Source: Acinetobacter phage SH-Ab 15599. From it: a DNA stretch of 64,000 nt. Below, in pieces: positions 48,710-63,949 of this stretch (position 1 is the first letter of the stretch; each line of letters starts with the position of its first letter). The stretch lies in the sequence record MH517022.1. One strand, 5' to 3'. The position numbers and the translations under genes were made by a program. The notes under the pieces were generated by a model. It saw only the letters and a program-made list of their open reading frames with translations. It searched no databases and was not told the origin of the DNA.

Positions 48710-49753
48710 TTAGAATTTTTGCCCAAGAGCTAACATTTCATTCAAATCAAATTTACCAACAATCGCGCCGTCAACTTGGTATGAACTCACTTTTGTTTCA
48801 AAGAATGAGCTTACTTTGTTTTCAGTTAAGATTGGATCAATCCAGCTACAAGGGTTTGTAGTGATTTCAGTAAATTCTGGTTTCAAGCCCATTTGCACCA
48901 TACGGCGGTTAGACATAAAACGCATATACGCTTTGTTTTCATCAAGAGAGAATGTATCAAGTTGTAAAGCTCGATGAGCACGATCCAAGAATGTATCTTC
49001 AACCTGAATGAAACGACGGTTCAATTCATAAATCTCTTTCTTGAACTTGTCATTAACAATCGGGTGCTCATAAGTCAACTGTTGGAAGAACTTCACGTTG
49101 GCGTCTGTATGTAACGTTTCATCACGTAATGACCAAGCGTTGATTTTTGAGAAGCCTTTGAGACGACCACCGCGTTTACCGTTGAACGCAACTTTGTCAC
49201 GACGCATGAATTGTAATAAACTCACAAATACGCCGAACAGACCTACGCCTTCATCAATTACAGAGTGAGCGTGGTTGATTGCTAATTGATCTACAGTGTC
49301 GCAATCGAAATTGAAGAACATGCCTTCAAGACGTTCTTTCATTTCTTTGTATTCATGGAATGCTGCAAAGATAGAGTCATCCATGTTGAAGATTTCAGCC
49401 GCCAATGCATATGCTTCTTGGTGAATTGCTTCACGAGCTGCAATAGACATAAGCAGGTTACTTGCTTCATTGTTTTCATATTTTGTAAGGAAACACTTCT
49501 TGTAATTTTTAGCTACAACAACGTCACCTGTAGTGAAAACAGCAAAGATCAATTTGATGAATTTCTTCTCATCTTCTGTCAAGTTGTTTGCCCAGTCTTC
49601 ATGATCGTCTTGCATCTGGGCTTCGCCTGGAATCCAGTGAATTTTTTCATGCTCTTGGAACATCGTTTGAGCCCACATATAATGGAATGGGCGGTACACC
49701 AATGAGTCTTGGAACAGTGGACTTGAAGAGTCTTTAATTAAAATATTAGACAT
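48710..49753 (-). CDS. nrdB: ribonucleotide reductase class Ia beta subunit
   Basis: Di-iron/tyrosyl radical fold motifs including RDETLH. Immediately downstream of nrdA. Confidence 0.8.
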   Translation of the reverse strand: MSNILIKDSSSPLFQDSLVYRPFHYMWAQTMFQEHEKIHWIPGEAQMQDDHEDWANNLTEDEKKFIKLIFAVFTTGDVVVAKNYKKCFLTKYENNEASNLLMSIAAREAIHQEAYALAAEIFNMDDSIFAAFHEYKEMKERLEGMFFNFDCDTVDQLAINHAHSVIDEGVGLFGVFVSLLQFMRRDKVAFNGKRGGRLKGFSKINAWSLRDETLHTDANVKFFQQLTYEHPIVNDKFKKEIYELNRRFIQVEDTFLDRAHRALQLDTFSLDENKAYMRFMSNRRMVQMGLKPEFTEITTNPCSWIDPILTENKVSSFFETKVSSYQVDGAIVGKFDLNEMLALGQKF

Positions 49754-49759
49754 TATATG

Positions 49760-52381
49760 TTATCCTTGGCAATTCGAGCATTCTTTATCTTCAAACAGTG
49801 TATCTGCTTGAGCTTTATGTTCTTTGTAAAGGGCTTGTACTTCTTTCATACCGCCGATCCACTCTCCGTTCAAGAACACTTGAGGCACAGAACGAATAGA
49901 TGGGTCACCTGTAACTTCAGCCGCCGTTTTACCAACTTGTTGTAAATCAACAAATTTGAAATCAAGACCCATATCGCTTAACATACGTTTAACAGTGTTA
50001 CAGTTCGGACAAACCTTGGTACCATATACAATATTTTCACCCTTCTCTTTTTCTTTCTTCTCTGAATCTTTCAGAGCTTTACGAACAAGAGCTTGAGATA
50101 ATGTTTCAATCTCAACTTCAGGTTTTGTACGGTAGTAATAGAGAGATTTCAAACCCCACAACCAAGCGTGATAGTGACAAGCGAACACGTGGTTGATATC
50201 GCTGCCTGGTTTGAAGAACAAGTTCAGAGACTGAGCCTGACAGATATTAGGTTGACGGTCAGCAGCTAAACGTACAATACACATCTGATCAATTTCAAAT
50301 GCAGTTTTGAAGATTGCTCGTTCTAAATCTGTTAATTGTTTAAGATGAGCTACAGAACCTTCATTGTTAGCAATGTCTGTCCACGTTTCTTCATTATCAA
50401 TACCGTATTTTTGGAGAATCTCCTTCAAATACGGGTTGCGGCGTTCAAAGATACCAACACGAGTTTCTTTAGTGTAGATGTTAGCATACTCTGGCTCACA
50501 ACTAGCAGATGTTGTTAACATATCTGCGTTGTTTGAGTTAGGAGCAATAGCCAACAAGTGCATATTACGACGACCAACGTGAGGGTGATCCGTAGATGAT
50601 GCAGCATCTGGACACTCACCGCGCTCAGCCCCTAGACGAAGACTTTCAGCAACAGCTTGTTCTTTGATAGAACGGAACAAATCAATATTGAATTGTTTAG
50701 CTTCAGGAGACTCGAAAGGCATACCATGTTTCTGGAATGCATAGTGAAGACCCATTACACCAAGACCGATAGAACGTTCTTGTTTAGCTGAGTTAATCAC
50801 TTTATGTAATGCTAATTTGATCAATTCGCGATGACGCGGATTTGTATAACGGTTAGCAATCCAATCGGCGGTACGAATGAAGTGTTCAAGAGCGTTGTCC
50901 AAAGCGCGGACTAAGTCACCAACTAATGTAGGAGCCCACACGTCTGAATATTCGGCATTAAGAGAAGATAAACAACAAACTGGAGTACGGTCATCATTAG
51001 CAGGTAATGTAATTTCAGTACAGTTTGAAACTAACAACATCTTGTGGCTATGACCTTCACCACTGATGCTGATATAGAAGTTATGGTTGTCTTCAACTTC
51101 TAAACAATAAACTTCTTTTATTGCGCCGTCAAAAATTAGTTCAGCAACAATTGGATCAGAGTTTACATTTGATACATTACCATTGCGATACAAACGAGCA
51201 TCAAGACGTTTACCAATAGAATCTTTGGCTTTTACGCGGTGACCCTGAGTTGTAAACAATTCGTGATCTTTGGTACATTGAAAACGTTCACCAGAGTTTA
51301 GAACAACTGTAACAAGCTCTTTACGACCTGTTAAACGTGCAGTTGCTGTCTTCACTTCTGGGATTACTCGTCCACCAACTACTTTCCCTGACCAGACTTT
51401 GAAAGGAATTGAACCAGATGATTCACGAGCCAATTGTTTAACTGTAATTGGTTTACGACCGTCAGCTACCATCACCAATGTATCTTCAGATAAACAAAGG
51501 TTTGATGCGTATGAGTAAAGACCTAGACGCTTTTGAGCTTCTGGTAATGCGCGGTTAGCATTTCCGCGGAAATACATAAACGGTTCGCCAGTACGTCCAC
51601 GCTCAGTGAGCATAGATTGGAAGTATTCAGCTGGGTTTACTGTATCAATTACGCGTTTAGTATGAGGGTCGATCAAGTGATATTCTTTTTCGCCGTCACG
51701 GATACGTTCCATCAAGTCGTCATCAATAGAGAACCCGATATGAATGTTCTCAGCCTTACGGTTTGAGTCACCTGTTGGAGTACGAATTTTCAAGAACTCT
51801 TTAGCTGAACCGTGGTTAGCAGATAACCACGCAGCTTCAGCTCCGCGACGCACTTTACCTTGTTTCCAAGCTAAGATAGAAGCATCATCTTCAATTACAA
51901 ATGGAATTGGGCCAGGGCTTTTATCAGATACATAACGGACATCAAAATATTTCCCGATGCCACCGCCGATGACAGAGAGTAAAGATGTTTCCAATTTGCC
52001 CATAAGCAAAGATGGGATTGAGTCACTAACCATTGGTAGGAAACAACTGATGTTTTGTGATCCGTTATGTTCGAAATCATCTTCATGATCCCAAATAGGT
52101 AAACTTTGATTTGCCATTCCAGCTACCCAAATTTCTTCTTTGAGAAGAGGCGCATTGGAAAGCATTGGAGAAGACCACATGAAATGTAGTAAAGAGTTTG
52201 CATCATATAGGCGTTGTGCATGAGCTAAGTCATCAGACCAAGCCACGCAAGCTCGGGCTAGTCGCTCTTGTATTGTTTCTTTTCCACTTGTGTAGAATCC
52301 CTTGATTAAGTCTTTAGCAGGTTCTGTAAGGAGTTCATCTCGACTATCGTCAATTTGAATTCCAAGATAAACACGTGACAT
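49760..52381 (-). CDS. nrdA: ribonucleotide reductase class I alpha subunit with an in-frame mini-intein and a C-terminal glutaredoxin-like domain
   Basis: Catalytic-site sequence SNL|C..TEI is split by an intein. C-terminus VCPNC...VPQVFLNGEWIGG is a glutaredoxin fold. Confidence 0.9.
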   Translation of the reverse strand: MSRVYLGIQIDDSRDELLTEPAKDLIKGFYTSGKETIQERLARACVAWSDDLAHAQRLYDANSLLHFMWSSPMLSNAPLLKEEIWVAGMANQSLPIWDHEDDFEHNGSQNISCFLPMVSDSIPSLLMGKLETSLLSVIGGGIGKYFDVRYVSDKSPGPIPFVIEDDASILAWKQGKVRRGAEAAWLSANHGSAKEFLKIRTPTGDSNRKAENIHIGFSIDDDLMERIRDGEKEYHLIDPHTKRVIDTVNPAEYFQSMLTERGRTGEPFMYFRGNANRALPEAQKRLGLYSYASNLCLSEDTLVMVADGRKPITVKQLARESSGSIPFKVWSGKVVGGRVIPEVKTATARLTGRKELVTVVLNSGERFQCTKDHELFTTQGHRVKAKDSIGKRLDARLYRNGNVSNVNSDPIVAELIFDGAIKEVYCLEVEDNHNFYISISGEGHSHKMLLVSNCTEITLPANDDRTPVCCLSSLNAEYSDVWAPTLVGDLVRALDNALEHFIRTADWIANRYTNPRHRELIKLALHKVINSAKQERSIGLGVMGLHYAFQKHGMPFESPEAKQFNIDLFRSIKEQAVAESLRLGAERGECPDAASSTDHPHVGRRNMHLLAIAPNSNNADMLTTSASCEPEYANIYTKETRVGIFERRNPYLKEILQKYGIDNEETWTDIANNEGSVAHLKQLTDLERAIFKTAFEIDQMCIVRLAADRQPNICQAQSLNLFFKPGSDINHVFACHYHAWLWGLKSLYYYRTKPEVEIETLSQALVRKALKDSEKKEKEKGENIVYGTKVCPNCNTVKRMLSDMGLDFKFVDLQQVGKTAAEVTGDPSIRSVPQVFLNGEWIGGMKEVQALYKEHKAQADTLFEDKECSNCQG
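51023..51496 (-). mobile_element. mini-intein (about 158 aa, no homing endonuclease domain) inserted just before the NrdA catalytic cysteine
   Basis: Block A CLSEDTLV, Block B TKDHELFT, Block F VYCLEVEDNHNFYI, and C-terminal ...LLVSN|C. Flanking exteins rejoin as YSYASNL-CTEITLP, the conserved RNR active-site loop. Confidence 0.75.
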
Positions 52382-55525: not shown

Positions 55526-58327
55526 TTAAACCATTTGGATTATTAAATTTCCCGATTCCACAGTCACAGATACAGCGGTTGGGTTAGTGTGGTAGACAGT
55601 GAAATTGTCAACAGAAGTTACTTCGGCATAAAACCTAGTTCCGCCTTTCGGTTTATCCATTTCAACCGCTAATCTATCGCCAAGTTTTAAACCAGTTATA
55701 GTTCCTGTTCGAGCTACAACTGTAGCTCCCGCGGATAAAGCTGCAGGAGAATACAATAATTTTACTGGCTTAGCTTCTATTACTCTTAAAACAGCATCTG
55801 TACCGACTACACCAGCTTGCTCCACTATATACTTATAAGGCGCACCAGCACCAGCGCCTAAATTATAAACATAATCATTAGCACTAACCTTGGCGCCAGT
55901 AATTAAGGTTCCAGCCTGCCATTCTCTGTTTCGCCCAGAGCACTTAATAGAAGAACCACCGCTTACTGCAACTGTAATCGTTCCAGATACAACATCATAA
56001 GAATCTAATTCTACTGGGTCTGAAATGGGATTAGAGTTGTTTACTAGGAAATTGTTTGAATAAGAAGGATCCAATACCATAATCTTTCCTACTTTTAGCG
56101 TTTTGCCTAAACTAGCAGTATTAGCAGATGAAACAACGCAGTAAGAATTTCCATGTTCAGTTACGATAATCTCATCAACTATTGTATTTAAAGCTAATTC
56201 ATTTCTTAAAGCTGTTCTAAATACGGTGTTGGAACTAGTGACTCCATATCTAATACATTCCATTCTACCCACTTTAGTATTTTTGGGTAATTTGGATGGA
56301 TCATTACCCGTTCCGATGACATTAACTGGATTAATTTTGGAATCTTTACTTATTAAATTATCAACTACTACATTGTTGGCTAAATTTCTGACGTATAAAC
56401 TAGAATAGAAATATTGACTTTCTGCATTTATTACTCTAAAATTACCTCCTCCGTTATCTCCGTTTATGAGAATATTAGACGCATTTCCAGTTTCTAATTT
56501 GCCAAAACAATTAATTGCCTCCACTAAACCAGAAATCTTAGCTAGATAATCGTCTGGAGTTGGAGTAAAACCAGCATTAGTAGTATCGTCAACAGTTGCA
56601 TATAGAGCATTGCCAAGCATACCTATACCTAAAGCATAAGAAGTTCCTTGTATTGAACCCACTTGGATATTTCTCATTCTATTCCTCTTGTCTTTCTCAT
56701 TTGCGTAAGCAAATCCTAGATCGCCAGCAGTTAAGAATAATAGACCTTTCCCTGTTATAGTATGATCCAAAATAGATCCTTCAATCTTTCCAATCTTAAT
56801 ATCGTAACCAGCAGAAATCAAAACCACTCCGGAATAATCATTAGTGTCGCAAGTTAAATTTCCAGCAGAAATTTCCTCGATTATACAATCGTGAGGGTGA
56901 GTAGTAGGTAACCAACCAACCTTATGTCTGTAGGTTCCGTTGTCATTATAATGATCTTGGAAGTTGCCCCAATGAGCCATAAAGACTCTACCAATAACTG
57001 CAGAATCGCCGCATTCGATCCTCTTTCCCCTAACTAGATTCGCTCCCCCAGCCATCACAAATCCATTACAATTAAAATGCCCCCCCTTTAAGATTAGGGT
57101 GTCAAAATAAAAACCAGAAATTTGTGGTTCTCTATTAGTGAAACTATCTATTCTGACGTGACACTTTTCTCCCCACCCTACAGTTGGATTTCCCATGTCT
57201 ACTGTAAGAGTTCCAATTATTCTAACATTAGATTCCGGAGCTAAACCAGATGCACTAGCACTTTGACTTGCGGCGCCTACTTGCTTTAGTGTTGAATTGT
57301 TACTAAACCATACCAAACCACTTTTAGGTTTAAATTCTTGATTAACTTCGTATACTTTTTCAGAAGTTAATAGAATACCATTGTTAGCTACTGCATAATC
57401 GGAAGCTAAGATAATATCGTCTCCAAACATCTCTGGTAGGACAATTAATTTCGATCTGATATCAAAATAACTTTTAGCTGTAATACCGTTCCACTCAACC
57501 AACTCTGAGTTAGTCGTTTTAAACTTCCAACCCGTCATATCTACATTAGGATTTTTCTTGTTACCATTTACAGTAGAATACACTTCCCCCGTATTGTTGT
57601 CAAGACGGATCACTGCCCCAAACGGATAACCACCTATTTTAAGGAATTTGTCTTCCCAATAGTTCTCATTGGTAACTCGGACAAGATCCAATTTTTCATC
57701 CAGTTTATCTCTGGTATAGGTCTTATTTTCCAATAGCGCTGCAATACCATCTGCACTTAATGTCTCAGATTTAGTATAGACATTCGTTTTGTCAGCTTTT
57801 GAATCGTATAAATCTTGAATAACTGGACTCAAATCTGGAATCTTATCATAAGATGGTAACTGTTCTTGAATAATTTTACCATCTTCTCCAAGCGTAGCCT
57901 TTGAACGCTCAAGTTGATCAGTACGCGTTACCATATCATGACGAGCTTCATTAGCTACATCATTTAGAGCAGTTTCAAATTCTGGATAAGAACCGAGAGA
58001 TGGTAGTTGATTTGTAGGGACCTTCCCTTCAACCAAGTCAGCTTTACGAGCTGCTACATCATCGGTATATGCTTCTGCGTAGTCTTTAGCAGTTTGAAGA
58101 TTATTGGTTAGAGCAAGATCAACCTGAGAGAGTTTGAGGTTGACTTCTTGAATATGTTGACTAATGAAGTCTGGCAGTTGAGATGAAACTAATTTGTTGT
58201 CATCCCCCAAATCAGCTTTTTTAACCAAACCTGCGCTCAATTGCTCCTTTGTAGCAAAGAAGCTTGCAATCTCACCTTCCATGGTGAGTTCGCTTATCAA
58301 GCATTCCAATCTTAGAGTCTGTGTCAT
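55526..58327 (-). CDS. tail fibre / tailspike 1 with a parallel beta-helix-like central region
   Basis: N-terminal repeats KADLVEGKVPTNQLP / EDGKIIQEQLPSYDKIP shared with the other two fibres. Gly/Asn-rich beta-helix-type repeats. 933 aa. Confidence 0.75.
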   Translation of the reverse strand: MTQTLRLECLISELTMEGEIASFFATKEQLSAGLVKKADLGDDNKLVSSQLPDFISQHIQEVNLKLSQVDLALTNNLQTAKDYAEAYTDDVAARKADLVEGKVPTNQLPSLGSYPEFETALNDVANEARHDMVTRTDQLERSKATLGEDGKIIQEQLPSYDKIPDLSPVIQDLYDSKADKTNVYTKSETLSADGIAALLENKTYTRDKLDEKLDLVRVTNENYWEDKFLKIGGYPFGAVIRLDNNTGEVYSTVNGNKKNPNVDMTGWKFKTTNSELVEWNGITAKSYFDIRSKLIVLPEMFGDDIILASDYAVANNGILLTSEKVYEVNQEFKPKSGLVWFSNNSTLKQVGAASQSASASGLAPESNVRIIGTLTVDMGNPTVGWGEKCHVRIDSFTNREPQISGFYFDTLILKGGHFNCNGFVMAGGANLVRGKRIECGDSAVIGRVFMAHWGNFQDHYNDNGTYRHKVGWLPTTHPHDCIIEEISAGNLTCDTNDYSGVVLISAGYDIKIGKIEGSILDHTITGKGLLFLTAGDLGFAYANEKDKRNRMRNIQVGSIQGTSYALGIGMLGNALYATVDDTTNAGFTPTPDDYLAKISGLVEAINCFGKLETGNASNILINGDNGGGNFRVINAESQYFYSSLYVRNLANNVVVDNLISKDSKINPVNVIGTGNDPSKLPKNTKVGRMECIRYGVTSSNTVFRTALRNELALNTIVDEIIVTEHGNSYCVVSSANTASLGKTLKVGKIMVLDPSYSNNFLVNNSNPISDPVELDSYDVVSGTITVAVSGGSSIKCSGRNREWQAGTLITGAKVSANDYVYNLGAGAGAPYKYIVEQAGVVGTDAVLRVIEAKPVKLLYSPAALSAGATVVARTGTITGLKLGDRLAVEMDKPKGGTRFYAEVTSVDNFTVYHTNPTAVSVTVESGNLIIQMV

Positions 58328-58348
58328 GAGGAGAAATCCGTAACTATT

Positions 58349-58365
58349 GAATTTCTCCTATTTAT
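58349..58365 (-). promoter_or_regulatory. late-promoter-like AACATAAATAGGAG, 31 nt upstream of the fibre start
   Basis: Plus strand reads ctcctatttatgtt. Confidence 0.3.
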
Positions 58366-58596
58366 GTTCTAAATGTAACTGTTGTTTGCCTCATATTACA
58401 ATAAATCCATGATGATCTTCCACTAAGCTTGAATGACGTCTTCCATGCGCCGTTTAGTAAAATATAAGAGTTATACCCTGACCCGCTTTACGCAATTAAC
58501 CCAATAGATATACGTCAACTACATGAACTTTTAGCCACTCCAGAATCATTCCAACAAATTCCACTATAGAACATCCTATATAAGTTTTACTTATAA

Positions 58597-58620
58597 TAGC
58601 AAAAAACCCCCGAAGGGGTT
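58597..58620 (-). terminator. rho-independent terminator (AACCCC-TTCG-GGGGTT plus TTTTTTGC on the minus strand)
   Basis: Located after the stop of the 58626 gene. Confidence 0.65.
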
Positions 58621-58625
58621 AGTTA

Positions 58626-61019
58626 TTAACTTGTAGCAGTAAAGGCGACTGTAAACCTATGCGGGTCAACCAGCGTCCCCGCTGCATCGCGCCAAAATAC
58701 CTTAAATCCCGCTGCTTCGGTGAAAGAAGTCCATGATCCAGGATATGTTTCAATCATTTGAACTCCATGAGTAGCACCTGTTCCAGTCCCCAAACGAGAA
58801 CCCATTAAGGGTGAGCCAACAACAATATGCCCATTTGTGATTACTGATGTATTTCCAGAAACTCGTTCAACTCGGTATACTCCTGTTGACTCTTTTACGA
58901 TCTGCCATCCGTTGTTATTTTGAGGTGTGCTGAATGACTGATCATAAGTCAGCATCATTGGTGCATAGAATGCACCCGCATTATTTGAGCCGTGGTTATA
59001 TGTTCCCCACTTGCGAGAAAGCTTTGTATAGGTGTCTGATGCAAGGTATTGTGCTCCAGAGCCATCTGCGCCAATAACACGTCTCTTAACTAATGGTGTT
59101 ACGGTAGATGAACTAATGTGCGTTTCATCAATCGTTGCATTGCCAGTCTTAAAGCCACTTGGCAGCATAAGCATTTTTGCCTTATTGCCAGCATTCACAA
59201 TAGCGATACCTTCTGCACTGACTGAAACACCACCATAGTTATTTGTTGGTAAGGAGTCCAAAGTGGGCGAAGTTTTTGATGTCCACCCGCCTAATAGTTT
59301 CGTGTATGCATAAAAGCTATTTCCATAACAGCTATTGGTTCCAGTAACCTCCAGCCAATCTTTAGATGTCTCTGTCTTTAGGTTTTCACACCAAAATTTA
59401 CCAAAACCGCAATGTGCTACTGTTCGAGCCTTGATACCTCCATTCATGCTTTCAAAAATAATATTTCCAAAATCACATCCATGAATATCTCTATCGAAAA
59501 TCATCGAATAGCCATCACCTAACTGGAAATAAATATTGTGGAATGTTCCAGTTGTGCTAACTCGGTTCAATGGGTCTTCACAATAAATTCCAGCATTTCG
59601 CGAGTAATATAGCCAAGCATTTGTGAAATTGAATCCCACAAGTGCTTGCTTAACAACAATTTGATTATAAAAATTAACAAGGGTAATGTGGTCAATATTA
59701 GCTAAGTACCCATCTATTTCAATGAATGATACTTGCTTGCCAGCGCCATTTGAACATCGAGCTGTTACATTCTGGATTGTAGGTCCGCAGTTAATGAATG
59801 CCGACTTGTTTGTAAGTGATGGAGAGCTACCATCCACATCAATACAACCAAGATTGTAGTAAAATTCGGAAACTTTCCCACAACCGTTACCAACCAAACC
59901 CTTACCTTTAAGGTCTACTTGGTTTTTTATTATGTATCGACCTTTTGCACCCAGATATAAATTTTGTCCAGTCAATGGACTATCACAGTAGGCCTGAAAA
60001 GCGGCACTATCATCAGTAATACCATCACCCTTTGCTCCAAAATTATCAACAGTAATAACATTTCCGTTAATTACTGATTGCGACAATCCGAAAAGATCGT
60101 CAAAAATATTCTTTGTAGAGTTAACCTTAACCCATCCCGTCATATCCACATTTGGGTCTGTGGTATTGTTTGGCATTGTATTTTTAACGATATCCCCATT
60201 TTCCAACATTACTCTGTCATTTAGAGCGTATCCACCAGATTTCGATTTCCATTTATAATCAATCTGAGACGTATGATAAATTTTCGATGACCAACCAGTA
60301 GTATTAACGTTTGGATTAGCTGCATTATCATCAACATTGTTAACGTATTCCACTCCGCTATCCAACAATATTCTAGAACCCTTTTTATAAGGCGCAAGAG
60401 TTGAGACATATAACGGAGTTTCGCCTTTATTATAATGAACAATAGCGCTTTCAGAAGCTTCCAAACGATTATCAAAATCATTTACTTGTGCATTGACCTG
60501 TTGTTCAAACTCGGAGAATGTATTATCAATATACTCTCTTTGTTCATTTACTTTGCTATCAACGTAAATTTTTGTATTGTTTTCTGATGTACCGATAGCT
60601 TGCATAAGAGTTTGATTGCCAGCGTCAATCTCTTGACGCACCTCGGTAAACTCATTTGCAATATTTTGTTCAAAATTTACTGGATATGGTAATTGTTGAT
60701 GAGGGATTTTCCCTTCAACAAGATCAGCTTTTTTAGCCAACTCAGTTGATAATTTGGTGTCTGTATAGGATTGAGAGTCCGTTACGGCTTGGGTTTTACT
60801 AGCAACGATATCTTCCTCAATATCTTCAAATTTTTCCGGTAAACCAGCAATCTGATCGTAATCTGGTAATTGAGAAGCGACAATTTTTCCATCTTCGCCT
60901 AAAGAGACGCGCTTGGATAATTCACTATCTACATAATCTTTAGTTGGGAATTCAGACGCAATAACCCCATTAGGGTCAAGATCGTCAATGGCTACTTCGA
61001 TTTTAAGTGTCTTTGACAT
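58626..61019 (-). CDS. tailspike 2 with a pectate-lyase-superfamily beta-helix (putative polysaccharide depolymerase)
   Basis: DNFGAKGDGITDDSAAFQAY hallmark of pectate lyase 3 / P22-like tailspikes. N-terminal fibre repeats. Start may be 61034 (longest ORF) or 61019, which is favoured by the spacing of the CATAAATA motif at 61047-61054. Confidence 0.75.
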   Translation of the reverse strand: MSKTLKIEVAIDDLDPNGVIASEFPTKDYVDSELSKRVSLGEDGKIVASQLPDYDQIAGLPEKFEDIEEDIVASKTQAVTDSQSYTDTKLSTELAKKADLVEGKIPHQQLPYPVNFEQNIANEFTEVRQEIDAGNQTLMQAIGTSENNTKIYVDSKVNEQREYIDNTFSEFEQQVNAQVNDFDNRLEASESAIVHYNKGETPLYVSTLAPYKKGSRILLDSGVEYVNNVDDNAANPNVNTTGWSSKIYHTSQIDYKWKSKSGGYALNDRVMLENGDIVKNTMPNNTTDPNVDMTGWVKVNSTKNIFDDLFGLSQSVINGNVITVDNFGAKGDGITDDSAAFQAYCDSPLTGQNLYLGAKGRYIIKNQVDLKGKGLVGNGCGKVSEFYYNLGCIDVDGSSPSLTNKSAFINCGPTIQNVTARCSNGAGKQVSFIEIDGYLANIDHITLVNFYNQIVVKQALVGFNFTNAWLYYSRNAGIYCEDPLNRVSTTGTFHNIYFQLGDGYSMIFDRDIHGCDFGNIIFESMNGGIKARTVAHCGFGKFWCENLKTETSKDWLEVTGTNSCYGNSFYAYTKLLGGWTSKTSPTLDSLPTNNYGGVSVSAEGIAIVNAGNKAKMLMLPSGFKTGNATIDETHISSSTVTPLVKRRVIGADGSGAQYLASDTYTKLSRKWGTYNHGSNNAGAFYAPMMLTYDQSFSTPQNNNGWQIVKESTGVYRVERVSGNTSVITNGHIVVGSPLMGSRLGTGTGATHGVQMIETYPGSWTSFTEAAGFKVFWRDAAGTLVDPHRFTVAFTATS

Positions 61020-61046
61020 GGGAGTGGATTCCATAAACGTTTGAAC

Positions 61047-61054
61047 TATTTATG
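61047..61054 (-). promoter_or_regulatory. late-promoter-like CATAAATA upstream of tailspike 2
   Basis: Plus strand reads tatttatg. Confidence 0.3.
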
Positions 61055-61069
61055 GAATCCACTTTTCAA

Positions 61070-63949
61070 TTAGTACATCATGCGTTTAATAATTTCGCTG
61101 CAGATGTAGTTCGATTGTAAAAGTTTACCAGCTGCATTAGGGTGTAGACCGTCTCTCAAGAATGTGCCGGCATCTGGGTCTGTTGGATTCGCCTTCCAAA
61201 CTTCTAATTCTTTAATAATTCCAGAATTAGCATATTGGTCAATTACATTAAACCCATATTGACGAGCCATTCTTGCAAGGTTCGTATTCAAATCTTTTCG
61301 AGCTTGTGTCTCAAGATCAGCGCGTTGTAAAGGTAAGCAATAGAAGCAGACCGCATTTGGCCATTTCTGTCTTAAAGTCCATAACGCCCAACGCATAGAT
61401 TCCAAAGTAAGCGCTCTGTTTAAATCATCCAGAGTTGGTTTGCTCATAGCAGTATCAAAATCACCTAGATTCACGCCTGCATCATTTGTGCCACAAGCAA
61501 GTACAATAACCCCTGGATTAAATCCGCTAGCAATAGCAGTATTGATTTGATGAGAAATCTTCTGCCATGTTAACTGCCCCGCATATTCCCTGAAAGCAGC
61601 TCCGCTTCTACCAACGTTCATATAACCGCCCATTTTCAGGGTAACATATGCATAGGTTGGCCAGTTAGGATACCAGTTAGGATCATAATACATTCCATTT
61701 TCAACATCGCAAGTTACTGTAATGGAATCTCCAATCATCAAATAAGAAGCACCAAATGCTCTTGAAACCATTGAGCTGGAACCACCGCCACTTTCGCCGC
61801 CTCTGATGATATCAACGCCGTTTATACCAGATATGCCTGGTTTAAATGCTTCATATGCGGTTGCAACAGTTCCAGATTCGATTTGTGTGGCGCTAATATC
61901 GAAAATTGTAGCAGTACGTTGAAGTAAACTCACTTGGAACCATTTAGCATTTGCTGGAACCGTAATTGTATAGAAAGAATCTGGATTTGGGACTTGAGCT
62001 TTTAAAATAAGCGTATTGTTCGCATCTAGGAATCTGTAATATCTAGGAATTTCTGGGTTTGGTTGAAGACCACTCAATGTAATATTTTGTAAACCACTCA
62101 CATTGATCAAATCTGTCGTAATACTTTGAGCCTGTGGTAATAAAGTACCATCACCATACACTTCAGTGCCCATAAGGATAGTGGCAGGGTTGAGAAGGTT
62201 TTTTGCTATTGCCTCATACCCGAGTTTTAAGTCAGTCTGTTTTATATGACTGCCATGAATACCAATCACATCTCCTTTACTGAATGCAGTATAGGAAGTT
62301 ATCACGCTTCCATATTCAATTTGAGCTGTAGAAGTATTCAAAGGATCTGAGTTACGTTGTTTGATAGACAACTGGAACCAAACAGCGTTAGCTGGTACCG
62401 TAAGAACTCTTTGATTGACTAAACCAATACTCGTTATTGTACCGACTAGATTCTCATCTTTATCTAAAAATCTGTAAAGACGCCCAATTTGAGGGTTTAG
62501 TTGTAGACCAGATATTGCAATTGAAGACGCACCTCTTACATCGATATAATCAGTTGTTACACTGTTCGCCTCAGCTATCAATCCAAGCGTAGCGTGCAAT
62601 TCATATCCCACTAAAAGATTCTGTGTATCCAAAATATTCTTAGTGGTAGAAGCGTAAATTGGGTGGGTGAGAGTTTTGATCGAATTTTTGATTGTATTAA
62701 CAATATTAGTAGTCAATACAGAGTCATCGCTATAATAAGTCCAAGGAGTCCAAACATTTGCTGTATCGCATAAACGCATTGCGAAAGCTTTAGCATTCAT
62801 ACACACTACCATCTGACAAACTACCGTTGCAGATACTGGCAATACAAATAATTGACCCCATTGGTTGGTATAACTTGGTTTATTAGCGCAACTATTCCAA
62901 ACTGTACCGCTCACAAACGTATGAAGACCGTATGTTTTCAGTGAGTTGAAGTCGACTGCTGAAGAAATTACCATTGGATTAAACATTCTGTTAGAATCCG
63001 CATAACTCTTAGCTAAAGCATATGGATCATAAGCAGATTTAGAGAACGCTGTACCATTCCACTGCCAATCTCCGTTGTTAGAGGCAGTTGAGTCATTCGT
63101 TACTGTGATTTTAGAATTGACTGGTAGAGTCGCTTTGTTAGCGTCCATCTCCGCATATGTTTTATAAGCTTTGTTGCCAGTACCAATAGCATTGATCTGA
63201 GCTTGTAGAACATTTTCTTGAGATACTGCTCTGTCTCGTTCTTCTATAATAGTATTGTTAATTTTCAATACCTGAGCGTCGGTATCGGTTTTATTGTAAA
63301 CGTCGGTTATATTAGCTTTGTTCGCAACTTTATTGTTTGTAGAGATCATATATGAATTAAAATCATTATTCATATTCTCTTGAAAATCATTTTGTTGATC
63401 CGTAATTGTTTCAACAAAATGATTTAATTCAGCATCTCTGGTAACGCCATCTGGAATTACAGTAATTGGTAACTTTCCAGACGCGTCCATCTTAGGAACT
63501 TTTACGCTGAGCTCATCGACTTTTGAATCAGTATATTGTTTAGATGCCAACTTCGCTGCGTCAACAGCCTCTTTAGCCCCAGGAACGTGTTTGAATTCAG
63601 TTGCTTGAGTATTTGGTACGCGGCCAGATACCAAGTCGGCTTTATTCTGAAGACCTGCAGTCATTTGTTGTCCGAGATTTTGAGACGCAGTTGCAACCTT
63701 TGTATCAGTCTCATCTCTCAATGTAGTTGCCAACTCATCAAATTTTTGAGTAACGCCGTTTAGATTTTGAAAGTCTGGCAGCTGATCTGGATCAACCTTT
63801 CCATCTTGAAGCAAGTCAGCCTTCTTAGCTTGATCAACCTCATATTGAGATTGGGCTACATATTCTGAAAGAACAATGCCGTCATCCCCGACATCAGCCA
63901 CCACAACGTCTAGCTTTAAATTGTTATCGGCCATGATCAGCCTCTCCAC
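61070..63949 (-). CDS. tail fibre 3 with a C-terminal SGNH/GDSL hydrolase (esterase) domain
   Basis: C-terminal blocks IGDSIT (I), GTND (III) and DGLHPN (V). N-terminal KADLLQDGKVDPDQLPDF repeats. GGAGAGG RBS. Confidence 0.75.
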   Translation of the reverse strand: MERLIMADNNLKLDVVVADVGDDGIVLSEYVAQSQYEVDQAKKADLLQDGKVDPDQLPDFQNLNGVTQKFDELATTLRDETDTKVATASQNLGQQMTAGLQNKADLVSGRVPNTQATEFKHVPGAKEAVDAAKLASKQYTDSKVDELSVKVPKMDASGKLPITVIPDGVTRDAELNHFVETITDQQNDFQENMNNDFNSYMISTNNKVANKANITDVYNKTDTDAQVLKINNTIIEERDRAVSQENVLQAQINAIGTGNKAYKTYAEMDANKATLPVNSKITVTNDSTASNNGDWQWNGTAFSKSAYDPYALAKSYADSNRMFNPMVISSAVDFNSLKTYGLHTFVSGTVWNSCANKPSYTNQWGQLFVLPVSATVVCQMVVCMNAKAFAMRLCDTANVWTPWTYYSDDSVLTTNIVNTIKNSIKTLTHPIYASTTKNILDTQNLLVGYELHATLGLIAEANSVTTDYIDVRGASSIAISGLQLNPQIGRLYRFLDKDENLVGTITSIGLVNQRVLTVPANAVWFQLSIKQRNSDPLNTSTAQIEYGSVITSYTAFSKGDVIGIHGSHIKQTDLKLGYEAIAKNLLNPATILMGTEVYGDGTLLPQAQSITTDLINVSGLQNITLSGLQPNPEIPRYYRFLDANNTLILKAQVPNPDSFYTITVPANAKWFQVSLLQRTATIFDISATQIESGTVATAYEAFKPGISGINGVDIIRGGESGGGSSSMVSRAFGASYLMIGDSITVTCDVENGMYYDPNWYPNWPTYAYVTLKMGGYMNVGRSGAAFREYAGQLTWQKISHQINTAIASGFNPGVIVLACGTNDAGVNLGDFDTAMSKPTLDDLNRALTLESMRWALWTLRQKWPNAVCFYCLPLQRADLETQARKDLNTNLARMARQYGFNVIDQYANSGIIKELEVWKANPTDPDAGTFLRDGLHPNAAGKLLQSNYICSEIIKRMMY

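What the first reader, a model, noticed from the sequence alone, without database searches (positions are those of the whole stretch)
51023..51496. Mini-intein interrupting NrdA immediately before the catalytic cysteine
The alpha subunit reads ...YSYASNL then a 158-residue insert, then CTEITLP.... The insert begins CLSEDTLV and carries TKDHELFT, VYCLEVEDNHNFYI and a terminal ...LLVSN followed by Cys. Splicing restores the universally conserved RNR active-site loop SNLC.EI. It is a HEN-less mini-intein at a classic RIR1 insertion site. An intein at the thiyl-radical cysteine means enzyme activity is strictly splicing-dependent. The penultimate residue is Ser rather than the usual His, which may affect splicing chemistry.
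Basis: partly seen in the sequence, partly recalled or inferred. Interest (0 to 1): 0.7.

Follow-up and report, generated by a model that had tools for sequence, protein, structure and literature searches.

The report
Mini-intein in phage ribonucleotide reductase
The large subunit of this Acinetobacter phage's ribonucleotide reductase is interrupted, just before its catalytic cysteine, by a genuine 158-residue self-splicing mini-intein; this is the commonest place for inteins in these enzymes, so the finding is real but ordinary.

Summary
The minus-strand gene 49760..52381 encodes an 873-aa NrdA. It is 100% identical to the RNR alpha subunit of Acinetobacter phage SH-Ab 15599. Codons 296-453 (window 51023..51496) form a 158-aa insert, CLSEDTLV...LLVSN, followed by Cys.

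Removing the insert restores ...YASNL|CTEITLP..., which aligns without a gap to solved NrdA structures and to intein-free phage homologues. The +1 Cys corresponds to E. coli C439, the thiyl-radical cysteine.

The insert is a Hint domain:
- Two curated NCBIfam intein models pass their cut-offs.
- PDB sequence matches are DnaB and DnaE mini-inteins.
- The AlphaFold model (pLDDT 92.9) matches intein structures at TM 0.74-0.86.

There is no endonuclease domain. Cys1, the block B TxxH motif, the terminal Asn and Cys+1 are invariant among relatives. The intein is under purifying selection (dN/dS 0.17) and has co-diverged with its host gene.

This insertion point is described in the literature as the most frequent one for RNR inteins. 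Penultimate Ser or Lys in place of His is a known habit of phage inteins.

Block F position 4 is Cys rather than Asp, and that change co-varies with loss of the penultimate His. Related metagenomic phages carry two abutting inteins at this same site.

Verdict: a new member of a known kind, of low interest. Splicing itself has not been tested.

The parts
49760..52381 (-). nrdA precursor gene (873 aa, 98.1 kDa): N-extein, mini-intein, C-extein with a fused glutaredoxin domain
   Evidence: ORF. Pfam Ribonuc_red_lgC E 7.9e-78, split into two stretches. 100% identical to the RNR alpha subunit of Acinetobacter phage SH-Ab 15599, AXF41540.1. Mass.
51497..52381 (-). N-extein, aa 1-295, ending ...YSYASNL. 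Contains C113 (E. coli C225 equivalent), N294 (N437) and L295 (L438).
51023..51496 (-). Class 1 mini-intein, 158 aa, 17.4 kDa (protein aa 296-453)
51473..51496 (-). Intein block A, CLSEDTLV. Cys1 is the nucleophile for the N-S acyl shift.
   Evidence: Cys1 is invariant in alignments A1 and A2. TIGR01445 intein_Nterm matches protein aa 296-377.
51251..51292 (-). Intein block B, GERFQCTKDHELFT. Thr75 and His78 form the TxxH motif. Cys74 before the Thr is invariant in this family.
   Evidence: C74, T75 and H78 are invariant. Sequence read.
51071..51112 (-). Intein block F, VYCLEVEDNHNFYI. Position F:4 is Cys131 rather than the usual Asp. The block F His is His138.
   Evidence: TIGR01443 intein_Cterm matches this stretch.
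51023..51043 (-). Intein block G, KMLLVSN. The penultimate residue is Ser157 (not His) and the terminal residue is Asn158. An extended beta-hairpin of about 9 extra residues separates it from block F.
   Evidence: N158 is invariant; the penultimate residue is S, K or H among relatives. Strands 139-147 and 150-156 appear in the model.
51020..51022 (-). +1 Cys codon (precursor C454). It is the splicing nucleophile and, after splicing, the thiyl-radical cysteine (E. coli C439 equivalent).
49760..51022 (-). C-extein (aa 454-873 plus stop), starting CTEITLP. Contains E456 (E. coli E441), C469 (C462) and Y748/Y749 (Y730/Y731).
49856..50032 (-). Glutaredoxin domain fused to the C-terminus of NrdA (aa 784-842, active site CPNC)
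   Evidence: Pfam Glutaredoxin E 1.2e-10, 41.9 bits against a cut-off of 22.9. PDB glutaredoxin matches. Sequence.
49763..49780 (-). C-terminal tail CSNCQG. This is a CxxC pair in the position of the NrdA redox-shuttle cysteines (inferred).
   Evidence: Sequence. The role of the C-terminal Cys pair in class I RNR is described in PMC6187632.
48710..49753 (-). nrdB (347 aa), the radical-generating partner, immediately downstream of nrdA
   Evidence: Pfam Ribonuc_red_sm E 1.9e-49. PDB 9dws E 1.5e-66.

Best explanation
This is a genuine class 1 mini-intein with no endonuclease domain, inserted in frame in the phage nrdA gene between the equivalents of E. coli L438 and C439. The gene is translated as a 98-kDa precursor in which the 17.4-kDa Hint domain splits the active-site loop that carries the thiyl-radical cysteine. 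Splicing is inferred to follow the standard four steps. First, Cys1 (C296) makes an N-S acyl shift at the Leu295-Cys296 bond, assisted by block B Thr75 and His78. Second, the +1 Cys (C454) attacks that thioester and forms the branched intermediate. Third, Asn158 (N453) cyclises and releases the intein. Fourth, an S-N acyl shift restores the peptide bond. The product is an 80.7-kDa NrdA-glutaredoxin protein with the intact SNLCTEI loop. The intein has lost its homing endonuclease. It has been inherited vertically within the SH-Ab 15599 / nACB2 phage clade, and selection on the phage's dNTP supply keeps it able to splice. Its catalytic set is non-canonical but precedented: Cys instead of Asp at F:4, and Ser instead of His at the penultimate position. 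The block F His138 may take over the role of the missing His. Shown here: the insert, its fold, the conserved nucleophiles, the gapless restoration of NrdA, and purifying selection. Inferred: that splicing occurs, and by this route.
For: The coordinates and junctions are exact. Hint-domain membership is supported by TIGR01445 at 39.3 bits (cut-off 24.5) and TIGR01443 at 22.8 bits (cut-off 15.6), Pfam PF14890 at E 2e-7, and PDB DnaB and DnaE mini-inteins at E 1.3e-4 to 4.5e-3. The AF2 model has pLDDT 92.9 and pTM 0.87. All 50 best PDB fold matches are inteins or Hint domains; NpuDnaB gives TM 0.74/0.82 and Mtu RecA 0.76/0.86. A profile of the family finds 6220 proteins at E<=1e-3. The spliced sequence aligns without a gap across the junction to 6dqw and 6dqx and to E. 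coli NrdA, with all catalytic residues present. Intein-free homologues P0009, P0011 and P0020 read ASNLCTE[VI]TLA or ATNICTEITLA. C1, T75, H78, N158 and C+1 are invariant in 10-11 relatives. dN/dS against phage nACB2 is 0.17 for the intein and 0.09 for the exteins, with similar dS. Intein identity falls in step with extein identity across the clade. Intein GC (38.8%) equals the window's (39.0%). The literature names this the most frequent RNR intein site, and 37 proteins with an intein at this point turned up in my survey. Non-His penultimate residues splice in other phage inteins (PMC5050341).
Against: No experiment shows splicing. The Pfam Intein_splicing score (31.4 bits) is below its gathering score of 35.8. 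Two assisting residues depart from consensus (F:4 Cys, G:6 Ser), so splicing could be slow or conditional. dS between the two phages is near saturation (about 1.5-1.8), so the dN/dS values are rough.
Confidence: 0.88

Rival explanations
1. The intein is a conditional splicing switch. The Cys1 / Cys131 (F:4) / Cys+1 cluster, together with the loss of the penultimate His, makes splicing sensitive to redox state or zinc. Active RNR would then appear only under reducing conditions, possibly helped by the fused glutaredoxin.
For: F:4 lies centrally between both splice junctions, and an F:4 Cys forms a regulatory disulfide in the mycobacterial DnaB intein (PMC6195587). In 113 intein C-terminal modules, F:4 Cys goes with a non-His penultimate residue in 15 of 17 cases, whereas F:4 Asp goes with His in 90 of 95. 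This points to a distinct catalytic configuration. Penultimate-residue changes tune splicing rate in phage inteins.
Against: There is no direct evidence. The co-variation is not corrected for shared ancestry. Cys at F:4 is the second most common residue at that position in inteins generally (PMC4031507). The bacterial cytoplasm is reducing. A lytic phage gains little by delaying dNTP synthesis.
Confidence: 0.08
2. The intein is degenerate and no longer splices. The nrdA gene would then be functionally dead, or would yield only cleaved fragments, and the phage would rely on the host RNR.
For: Two assisting residues are non-canonical. Some relatives (P0005, P0006, P0007) also lack the block F His. 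Decaying intein-containing nrdA genes have been proposed in Campylobacter phages (PMC3653736).
Against: The ORF is intact. The exteins are under strong purifying selection (dN/dS 0.09) and so is the intein (0.17), at a synonymous divergence above 1. All nucleophiles are invariant. All catalytic RNR residues, nrdB and the glutaredoxin domain are retained.
Confidence: 0.03
3. The intein splices by a class 3-like route in which Cys131 (F:4), rather than Cys1, attacks the N-terminal junction.
For: Cys at F:4 is the class 3 nucleophile (PMC4031507).
Against: Cys1 is present and invariant. Block B has the class 1 Thr (TxxH). Of the WCT triplet, only the Cys is present: B:12 is Leu80 and G:5 is Val156.
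Confidence: 0.01

Closest known systems
Contiguous RNR inteins at the thiyl-radical site (InBase 'RIR1' inteins inserted directly N-terminal to the catalytic Cys of class I and II RNRs), and the allelic split NrdA inteins of Dassa et al. 2009
   Same: The insertion point is identical (SNL|CxEI). The +1 residue is the catalytic Cys. The intein has a class 1 Hint splicing domain. It belongs to a broad family found at this site in class I (SNL|C) and class II (TNP|CGEQ) enzymes.
   Different: It is contiguous and lacks an endonuclease, whereas many allelic members carry one (290-390 aa) or are split. It has F:4 Cys and penultimate Ser, where nearly all allelic members have Asp and His. The host is a phage NrdA with a C-terminal glutaredoxin fusion.
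Npu and Ssp DnaB mini-inteins and the Mtu RecA mini-intein (solved class 1 mini-inteins)
   Same: They have the same fold (TM 0.71-0.86) and detectable sequence similarity (24% identity to NpuDnaB). Blocks A, B, F and G occur in the same order.
   Different: The host protein and insertion site differ. The window intein has a longer hairpin between blocks F and G, Cys at F:4 and Ser at G:6.
Mycobacteriophage class 1 inteins lacking the penultimate His (Kelley et al. 2016)
   Same: They are phage inteins in DNA-metabolism proteins in which the penultimate His is replaced by Gly, Lys or Ser. The tested example splices well.
   Different: The phages, exteins and intein lineage are different. Splicing of the window intein has not been tested.
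Intein in the nrdA of Acinetobacter phage nACB2 (OQ032512, gp159) and of metagenomic relatives P0002-P0008
   Same: These are orthologous inteins at the same site, 47-65% identical, with the same F:4 Cys and a Ser or Lys penultimate residue.
   Different: They differ by sequence divergence only. None is annotated as an intein in the record or the papers seen.

Membership tests
Intein (Hint superfamily), class 1 | Hint (Hedgehog/intein) fold of the splicing domain | tested here: met
   The AF2 model has pLDDT 92.9. All of the top 50 Foldseek PDB matches are inteins or Hint domains, at E 1e-7 and TM 0.74-0.86.
Intein (Hint superfamily), class 1 | [quoted passage not shown] | tested here: met
   TIGR01445 scores 39.3 bits (cut-off 24.5) and TIGR01443 scores 22.8 bits (cut-off 15.6). 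Pfam PF14890 scores 31.4 bits, below its cut-off of 35.8, at E 2e-7.
Intein (Hint superfamily), class 1 | N-terminal nucleophile (Cys or Ser at position 1) | tested here: met
   Cys296 is intein Cys1, and it is invariant in relatives.
Intein (Hint superfamily), class 1 | Block B TxxH motif | tested here: met
   T75-K-D-H78 is present, and both Thr and His are invariant.
Intein (Hint superfamily), class 1 | C-terminal Asn followed by a Cys, Ser or Thr +1 nucleophile | tested here: met
   Asn158 is followed by Cys454. Both are invariant.
Intein (Hint superfamily), class 1 | Penultimate His (G:6) and Asp at F:4. These are common assisting residues, not strictly required. | tested here: not met
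   G:6 is Ser157 and F:4 is Cys131. Both substitutions are documented in functional inteins.
Intein (Hint superfamily), class 1 | In-frame insertion at a conserved site of a host protein that also exists without the insert | tested here: met
   Alignment across the junction to 6dqw, 6dqx and E. coli NrdA is gapless. Intein-free homologues are P0009, P0011, P0017 and P0020.
Intein (Hint superfamily), class 1 | Demonstrated protein splicing (excised intein plus ligated exteins) | not testable with these tools
   This needs expression and SDS-PAGE or mass spectrometry. Purifying selection on the intein and exteins is indirect support only.
Mini-intein | No homing-endonuclease domain between blocks B and F | tested here: met
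   The intein is 158 aa and has no LAGLIDADG or HNH Pfam match. A relative's HNH domain aligns as a roughly 200-residue insertion that the window intein lacks.
Class 3 intein | No position-1 nucleophile, and the WCT triplet (Trp B:12, Cys F:4, Thr G:5) | tested here: not met
   Cys1 is present. B:12 is Leu80, F:4 is Cys131 and G:5 is Val156.
Class 2 intein (KlbA type) | Ala1 together with Ser at G:6 | tested here: not met
   Ser is present at G:6, but position 1 is Cys, not Ala. Criterion taken from PMC4031507.
RNR thiyl-site intein allele | Insertion directly N-terminal to the thiyl-radical Cys (E. coli C439 equivalent) | tested here: met
   E. coli L438 maps to L295 and C439 maps to the +1 Cys. 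The site is defined in PMC2677866, and 37 proteins with an intein at this point were found.
Class I RNR alpha subunit (NrdA) | Catalytic residues C225, N437, C439, E441, C462, Y730 and Y731, and a C-terminal Cys pair | tested here: met
   All seven residues align. The C-terminal tail CSNC is present, though not aligned to E. coli. Pfam Ribonuc_red_lgC gives E 7.9e-78.

The most novel reading that the evidence does not exclude
The Cys1 / Cys131 (F:4) / Cys+1 triad, with Ser in place of the penultimate His, may define a distinct catalytic configuration of class 1 inteins. It may make splicing, and therefore activation of the phage RNR at its radical cysteine, responsive to thiol redox state or metal ions, perhaps in concert with the glutaredoxin domain fused to the same polypeptide.
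Probability: 0.08. Interest if true: 0.55.

Novelty: new member of a known kind. Interest (0 to 1): 0.2.

Why it matters
The practical gain is small. The gene is annotated only as 'ribonucleotide-diphosphate reductase subunit alpha', and the papers on SH-Ab 15599 and nACB2 do not mention the intein. The annotation should therefore be corrected to an 80.7-kDa mature protein rather than 98 kDa. The intein adds a compact 158-aa cysteine-dependent mini-intein with native SNL/CTE junctions to the catalogue, which could be useful as a protein-engineering scaffold. The clade also offers natural variants for studying how the assisting residues trade off: penultimate S, K or H, F:4 C or D, with or without the block F His. 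The more unusual material lies outside the window. Related phages carry two inteins abutting at this same site, plus a split intein before the other active-site cysteine.

Tried and rejected
- The word-indexed protein search with the intein alone returned nothing. The whole-protein search and the exhaustive profile search were used instead.
They were repeated with alignment A2.
- A literature search linking RIR1, thiyl radical and C439 found nothing useful. Lazarevic 2001 is not held. Swithers 2009 has nothing specific on RNR.
- Class 3 and class 2 mechanisms were considered because of F:4 Cys and G:6 Ser. Both were rejected because Cys1 and the block B Thr are present and the Trp and Thr of the WCT triplet are absent.
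- A conserved His at intein position 151 (the 'DH' motif upstream of block G) was considered as a substitute for the penultimate His.
- I considered whether the intein's 3' end (TCA AAC | TGT) mimics the N-extein's TCA AAC CTT | TGT and acts as a pseudo-target for the second intein. This was dropped because the tandem alleles end in CAT AAC (His-Asn).
- Other inteins in the window were searched for with the family HMM on six-frame translations and with Pfam on 20 further ORFs. None was found.
Full report
**Observation**

The finding's coordinates are exact, but the feature lies on the minus strand. Window 49760..52381 (-) is one intact 873-codon ORF. Translating 51023..51496 (-) gives 158 residues, CLSEDTLVMV...HSHKMLLVSN. 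These are residues 296-453 of the ORF. The flanks are ...LGLYSYASNL on one side and CTEITLPANDD... on the other.

Pfam assigns the ORF to Ribonuc_red_lgC (E 7.9e-78, in two stretches split by the insert). It also finds a C-terminal glutaredoxin domain and a sub-threshold Intein_splicing match. The protein is 100% identical to the RNR alpha subunit of Acinetobacter phage SH-Ab 15599, AXF41540.1. The window is therefore part of that published genome.

**Is the insert an intein?**

Sequence evidence:
- NCBIfam intein_Nterm (TIGR01445) scores 39.3 bits against a cut-off of 24.5.
- NCBIfam intein_Cterm (TIGR01443) scores 22.8 bits against a cut-off of 15.6.
- Pfam PF14890 gives E 2e-7 but 31.4 bits, below its 35.8-bit gathering score.
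- phmmer against PDB returns only inteins at the top: NpuDnaB 4o1r at E 1.3e-4, then DnaE inteins and Ssp DnaB.

Fold evidence:
- An AlphaFold2 model built on a 10-sequence alignment is confident (pLDDT 92.9, pTM 0.87) and is an all-beta structure.
- All 50 best Foldseek matches in PDB are inteins or Hint domains. NpuDnaB gives E 1e-7 and TM 0.74/0.82; Mtu RecA gives TM 0.76/0.86.
- A profile of the family finds 6220 proteins at E<=1e-3 among 1.84 billion representatives.

There is no endonuclease. The intein is 158 aa and has no LAGLIDADG or HNH match. The HNH domain of a related intein aligns as a roughly 200-residue insertion between blocks B and F that is absent here.

**Does removal restore NrdA?**

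The 715-aa spliced sequence aligns without a gap across the junction to the NrdA structures 6dqw and 6dqx (E 3e-67; 'asnlcteitlpanddrtpvcclsslN' against 'ASNLCSEIMLPSTHDESFICCLSSMN').

Alignment to E. coli NrdA maps the key residues as follows:

| E. coli NrdA | Window precursor |
|---|---|
| C225 | C113 |
| N437 | N294 |
| L438 | L295 |
| C439 | C454, the +1 Cys |
| E441 | E456 |
| C462 | C469 |
| Y730 / Y731 | Y748 / Y749 |

Intein-free phage homologues (P0009, P0011, P0017, and P0020 from Delftia phage PhiW-14) read straight through the site. The intein therefore sits immediately before the thiyl-radical cysteine, which doubles as the +1 splicing nucleophile.

**Catalytic anatomy**

- Block A is C1-LSEDTLV.
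- Block B is QCT75KDH78ELFT (TxxH motif).
- Block F is VYC131LEVEDNH138NFYI.
- Block G is LLVS157N158, followed by Cys.

Cys1, T75, H78, N158 and Cys+1 are invariant in 10-11 relatives.

Two assisting positions depart from the consensus. F:4 is Cys where Asp is most common, and the penultimate G:6 is Ser where His is usual. Both departures have precedent. The Mills/Perler review lists Cys as the second most frequent residue at F:4 (PMC4031507). Kelley et al. 2016 found that the penultimate His is poorly conserved in phage class 1 inteins, being replaced by Gly, Lys or Ser, and that a Gly variant spliced better than its His mutant (PMC5050341).

The intein is neither class 3 nor class 2. It has Cys1 and the block B Thr. 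B:12 is Leu and G:5 is Val, so the WCT triplet is incomplete. Position 1 is not Ala.

**Evolution**

The nearest cultured relative, phage nACB2, has the orthologous intein. Metagenomic relatives P0002-P0008 have it too.

Against nACB2, the selection figures are:

| Region | aa identity | dN/dS |
|---|---|---|
| Intein | 64.6% | 0.17 |
| Exteins | 84.2% | 0.09 |

dS is similar for both (about 1.5-1.8, near saturation). The intein is therefore under weaker constraint than its host gene but is clearly under purifying selection, and it was present in the common ancestor.

Intein identity falls in step with extein identity through the clade (0.65/0.83, 0.56/0.75, 0.47/0.61, 0.42/0.52). Across very distant RNRs it plateaus at about 0.35-0.44, higher than the extein identity. 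That pattern fits old horizontal spread followed by vertical descent. Intein GC (38.8%) matches the window's (39.0%).

Polarity of the residue changes: outgroups P0010, P0038 and P0060 have F:4 Asp and G:6 His. The SH-Ab 15599 clade has F:4 Cys with G:6 Ser or Lys.

In 113 intein C-terminal modules recovered from the hits, Asp goes with His in 90 of 95 cases. Cys goes with Lys, Ser or Asn in 15 of 17. Fisher's exact test gives p = 1e-12, but this is not corrected for shared ancestry.

**Comparison with what is known**

Dassa et al. [quoted passage not shown] RNR is the second most common intein host in bacteria (PMC4760082).

Among the best profile hits together with the earlier NrdA homologues, I found 37 proteins with an intein at exactly this point. 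They include class I (SNL|CxEI) and class II (TNP|CGEQ) enzymes, and both mini and endonuclease-bearing forms.

The papers on nACB2 and SH-Ab 15599 do not mention the intein, and the GenBank product names do not either.

**Mechanism**

The most likely course is standard class 1 splicing:
1. N-S acyl shift at Leu295-Cys296.
2. Trans-thioesterification by Cys454.
3. Cyclisation of Asn453.
4. S-N shift.

This turns a 98.1-kDa precursor into an 80.7-kDa NrdA-Grx protein and a 17.4-kDa free intein (masses).

Because a 158-residue domain splits the active-site loop, the precursor is expected to be inactive. This is an inference and was not tested. The fold, the residues and the selection are shown. 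Splicing and its route are inferred.

**Rivals**

A conditional, redox-tuned switch is possible and has precedent: an F:4 Cys disulfide regulates the M. smegmatis DnaB intein (PMC6195587). There is no direct support for it here.

A dead intein is unlikely, given the selection on both intein and exteins.

**Verdict**

It is a new, unannotated member of a well-known kind, and its interest is low.

The surrounding clade is more unusual. It contains abutting double inteins and a split intein in the same gene in related phages. These are listed under things noticed in passing.

Noticed in passing
L002:6001-9681 (protein P0004; also P0267 and P0268): A related metagenomic phage, syntenic with the window, carries two inteins back to back at the same SNL|C site. 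A 159-aa mini-intein (...LLVHN) is followed immediately by a 349-aa HNH-bearing intein (CFAGETIV...ILTNN) and then CTEVTLP. No extein residue lies between them, so Cys1 of the second intein is the +1 nucleophile of the first. All three cluster members, from different assemblies, show this arrangement. The second intein has lower GC (38.3% against 44-45%). A phrase search of the paper library found no description of directly abutting inteins.
   Followed up: partly
L004:3475-7409 (protein P0007; 9 contigs): In another relative, nrdA is fractured just before the C225-equivalent cysteine (NIS|CFLP). An upstream ORF encodes the N-extein plus a Hint_2 N-intein. A 345-aa antisense ORF without a Pfam match follows. 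The next ORF begins with the C-intein (...GLVAHN|CFLP) and still contains the mini-intein, here with a penultimate Lys. This looks like a split-intein 'fractured gene' of the Dassa 2009 type. P0267 combines it with the tandem double intein, giving three inteins in one nrdA.
   Followed up: partly
window 49763-50032 (-): NrdA carries a C-terminal glutaredoxin domain (CPNC) followed by a CSNCQG tail. The reductant therefore appears to be fused between the RNR core and the C-terminal redox-shuttle cysteines. Nearly all of the 120 best homologues have the same fusion. A 2018 RefSeq survey reported grx::nrdA fusions in only two viruses (PMC6187632).
   Followed up: partly
intein C-terminal modules of profile hits (P0121-P0266): Block F position 4 and the penultimate residue co-vary. 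Asp goes with His in 90 of 95 modules. Cys goes with Lys, Ser or Asn in 15 of 17, including inteins in unrelated multi-intein proteins. This is not corrected for phylogeny.
   Followed up: partly
window 48710-49753 (-) and 49760-52381 (-): The closest solved NrdA structures are 6dqw and 6dqx (short alpha subunits without an ATP cone). The closest NrdB is 9dws (E 1.5e-66), well ahead of E. coli-type R2. The 'class Ia' label in the nACB2 record may therefore be imprecise.
   Followed up: no
whole window (phage SH-Ab 15599): A 2026 paper reports that this phage's DNA carries a hypermodified thymine, alpha-1,3-diaminopropanylthymine (PMC13458397). I did not look for the responsible genes in the window.
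   Followed up: no
window 55526-63949 (-): Three large tail-spike-like ORFs lie in tandem. One has pectate-lyase-like and tailspike Ig-like domains and one has a GDSL lipase/esterase domain. This matches the three depolymerases noted for nACB2 and SH-Ab 15599.
   Followed up: no
L004:11393-12409: The related phage contig carries an OrfB_IS605 / Cas12f-like TnpB gene a few kb downstream of nrdB.
   Followed up: no
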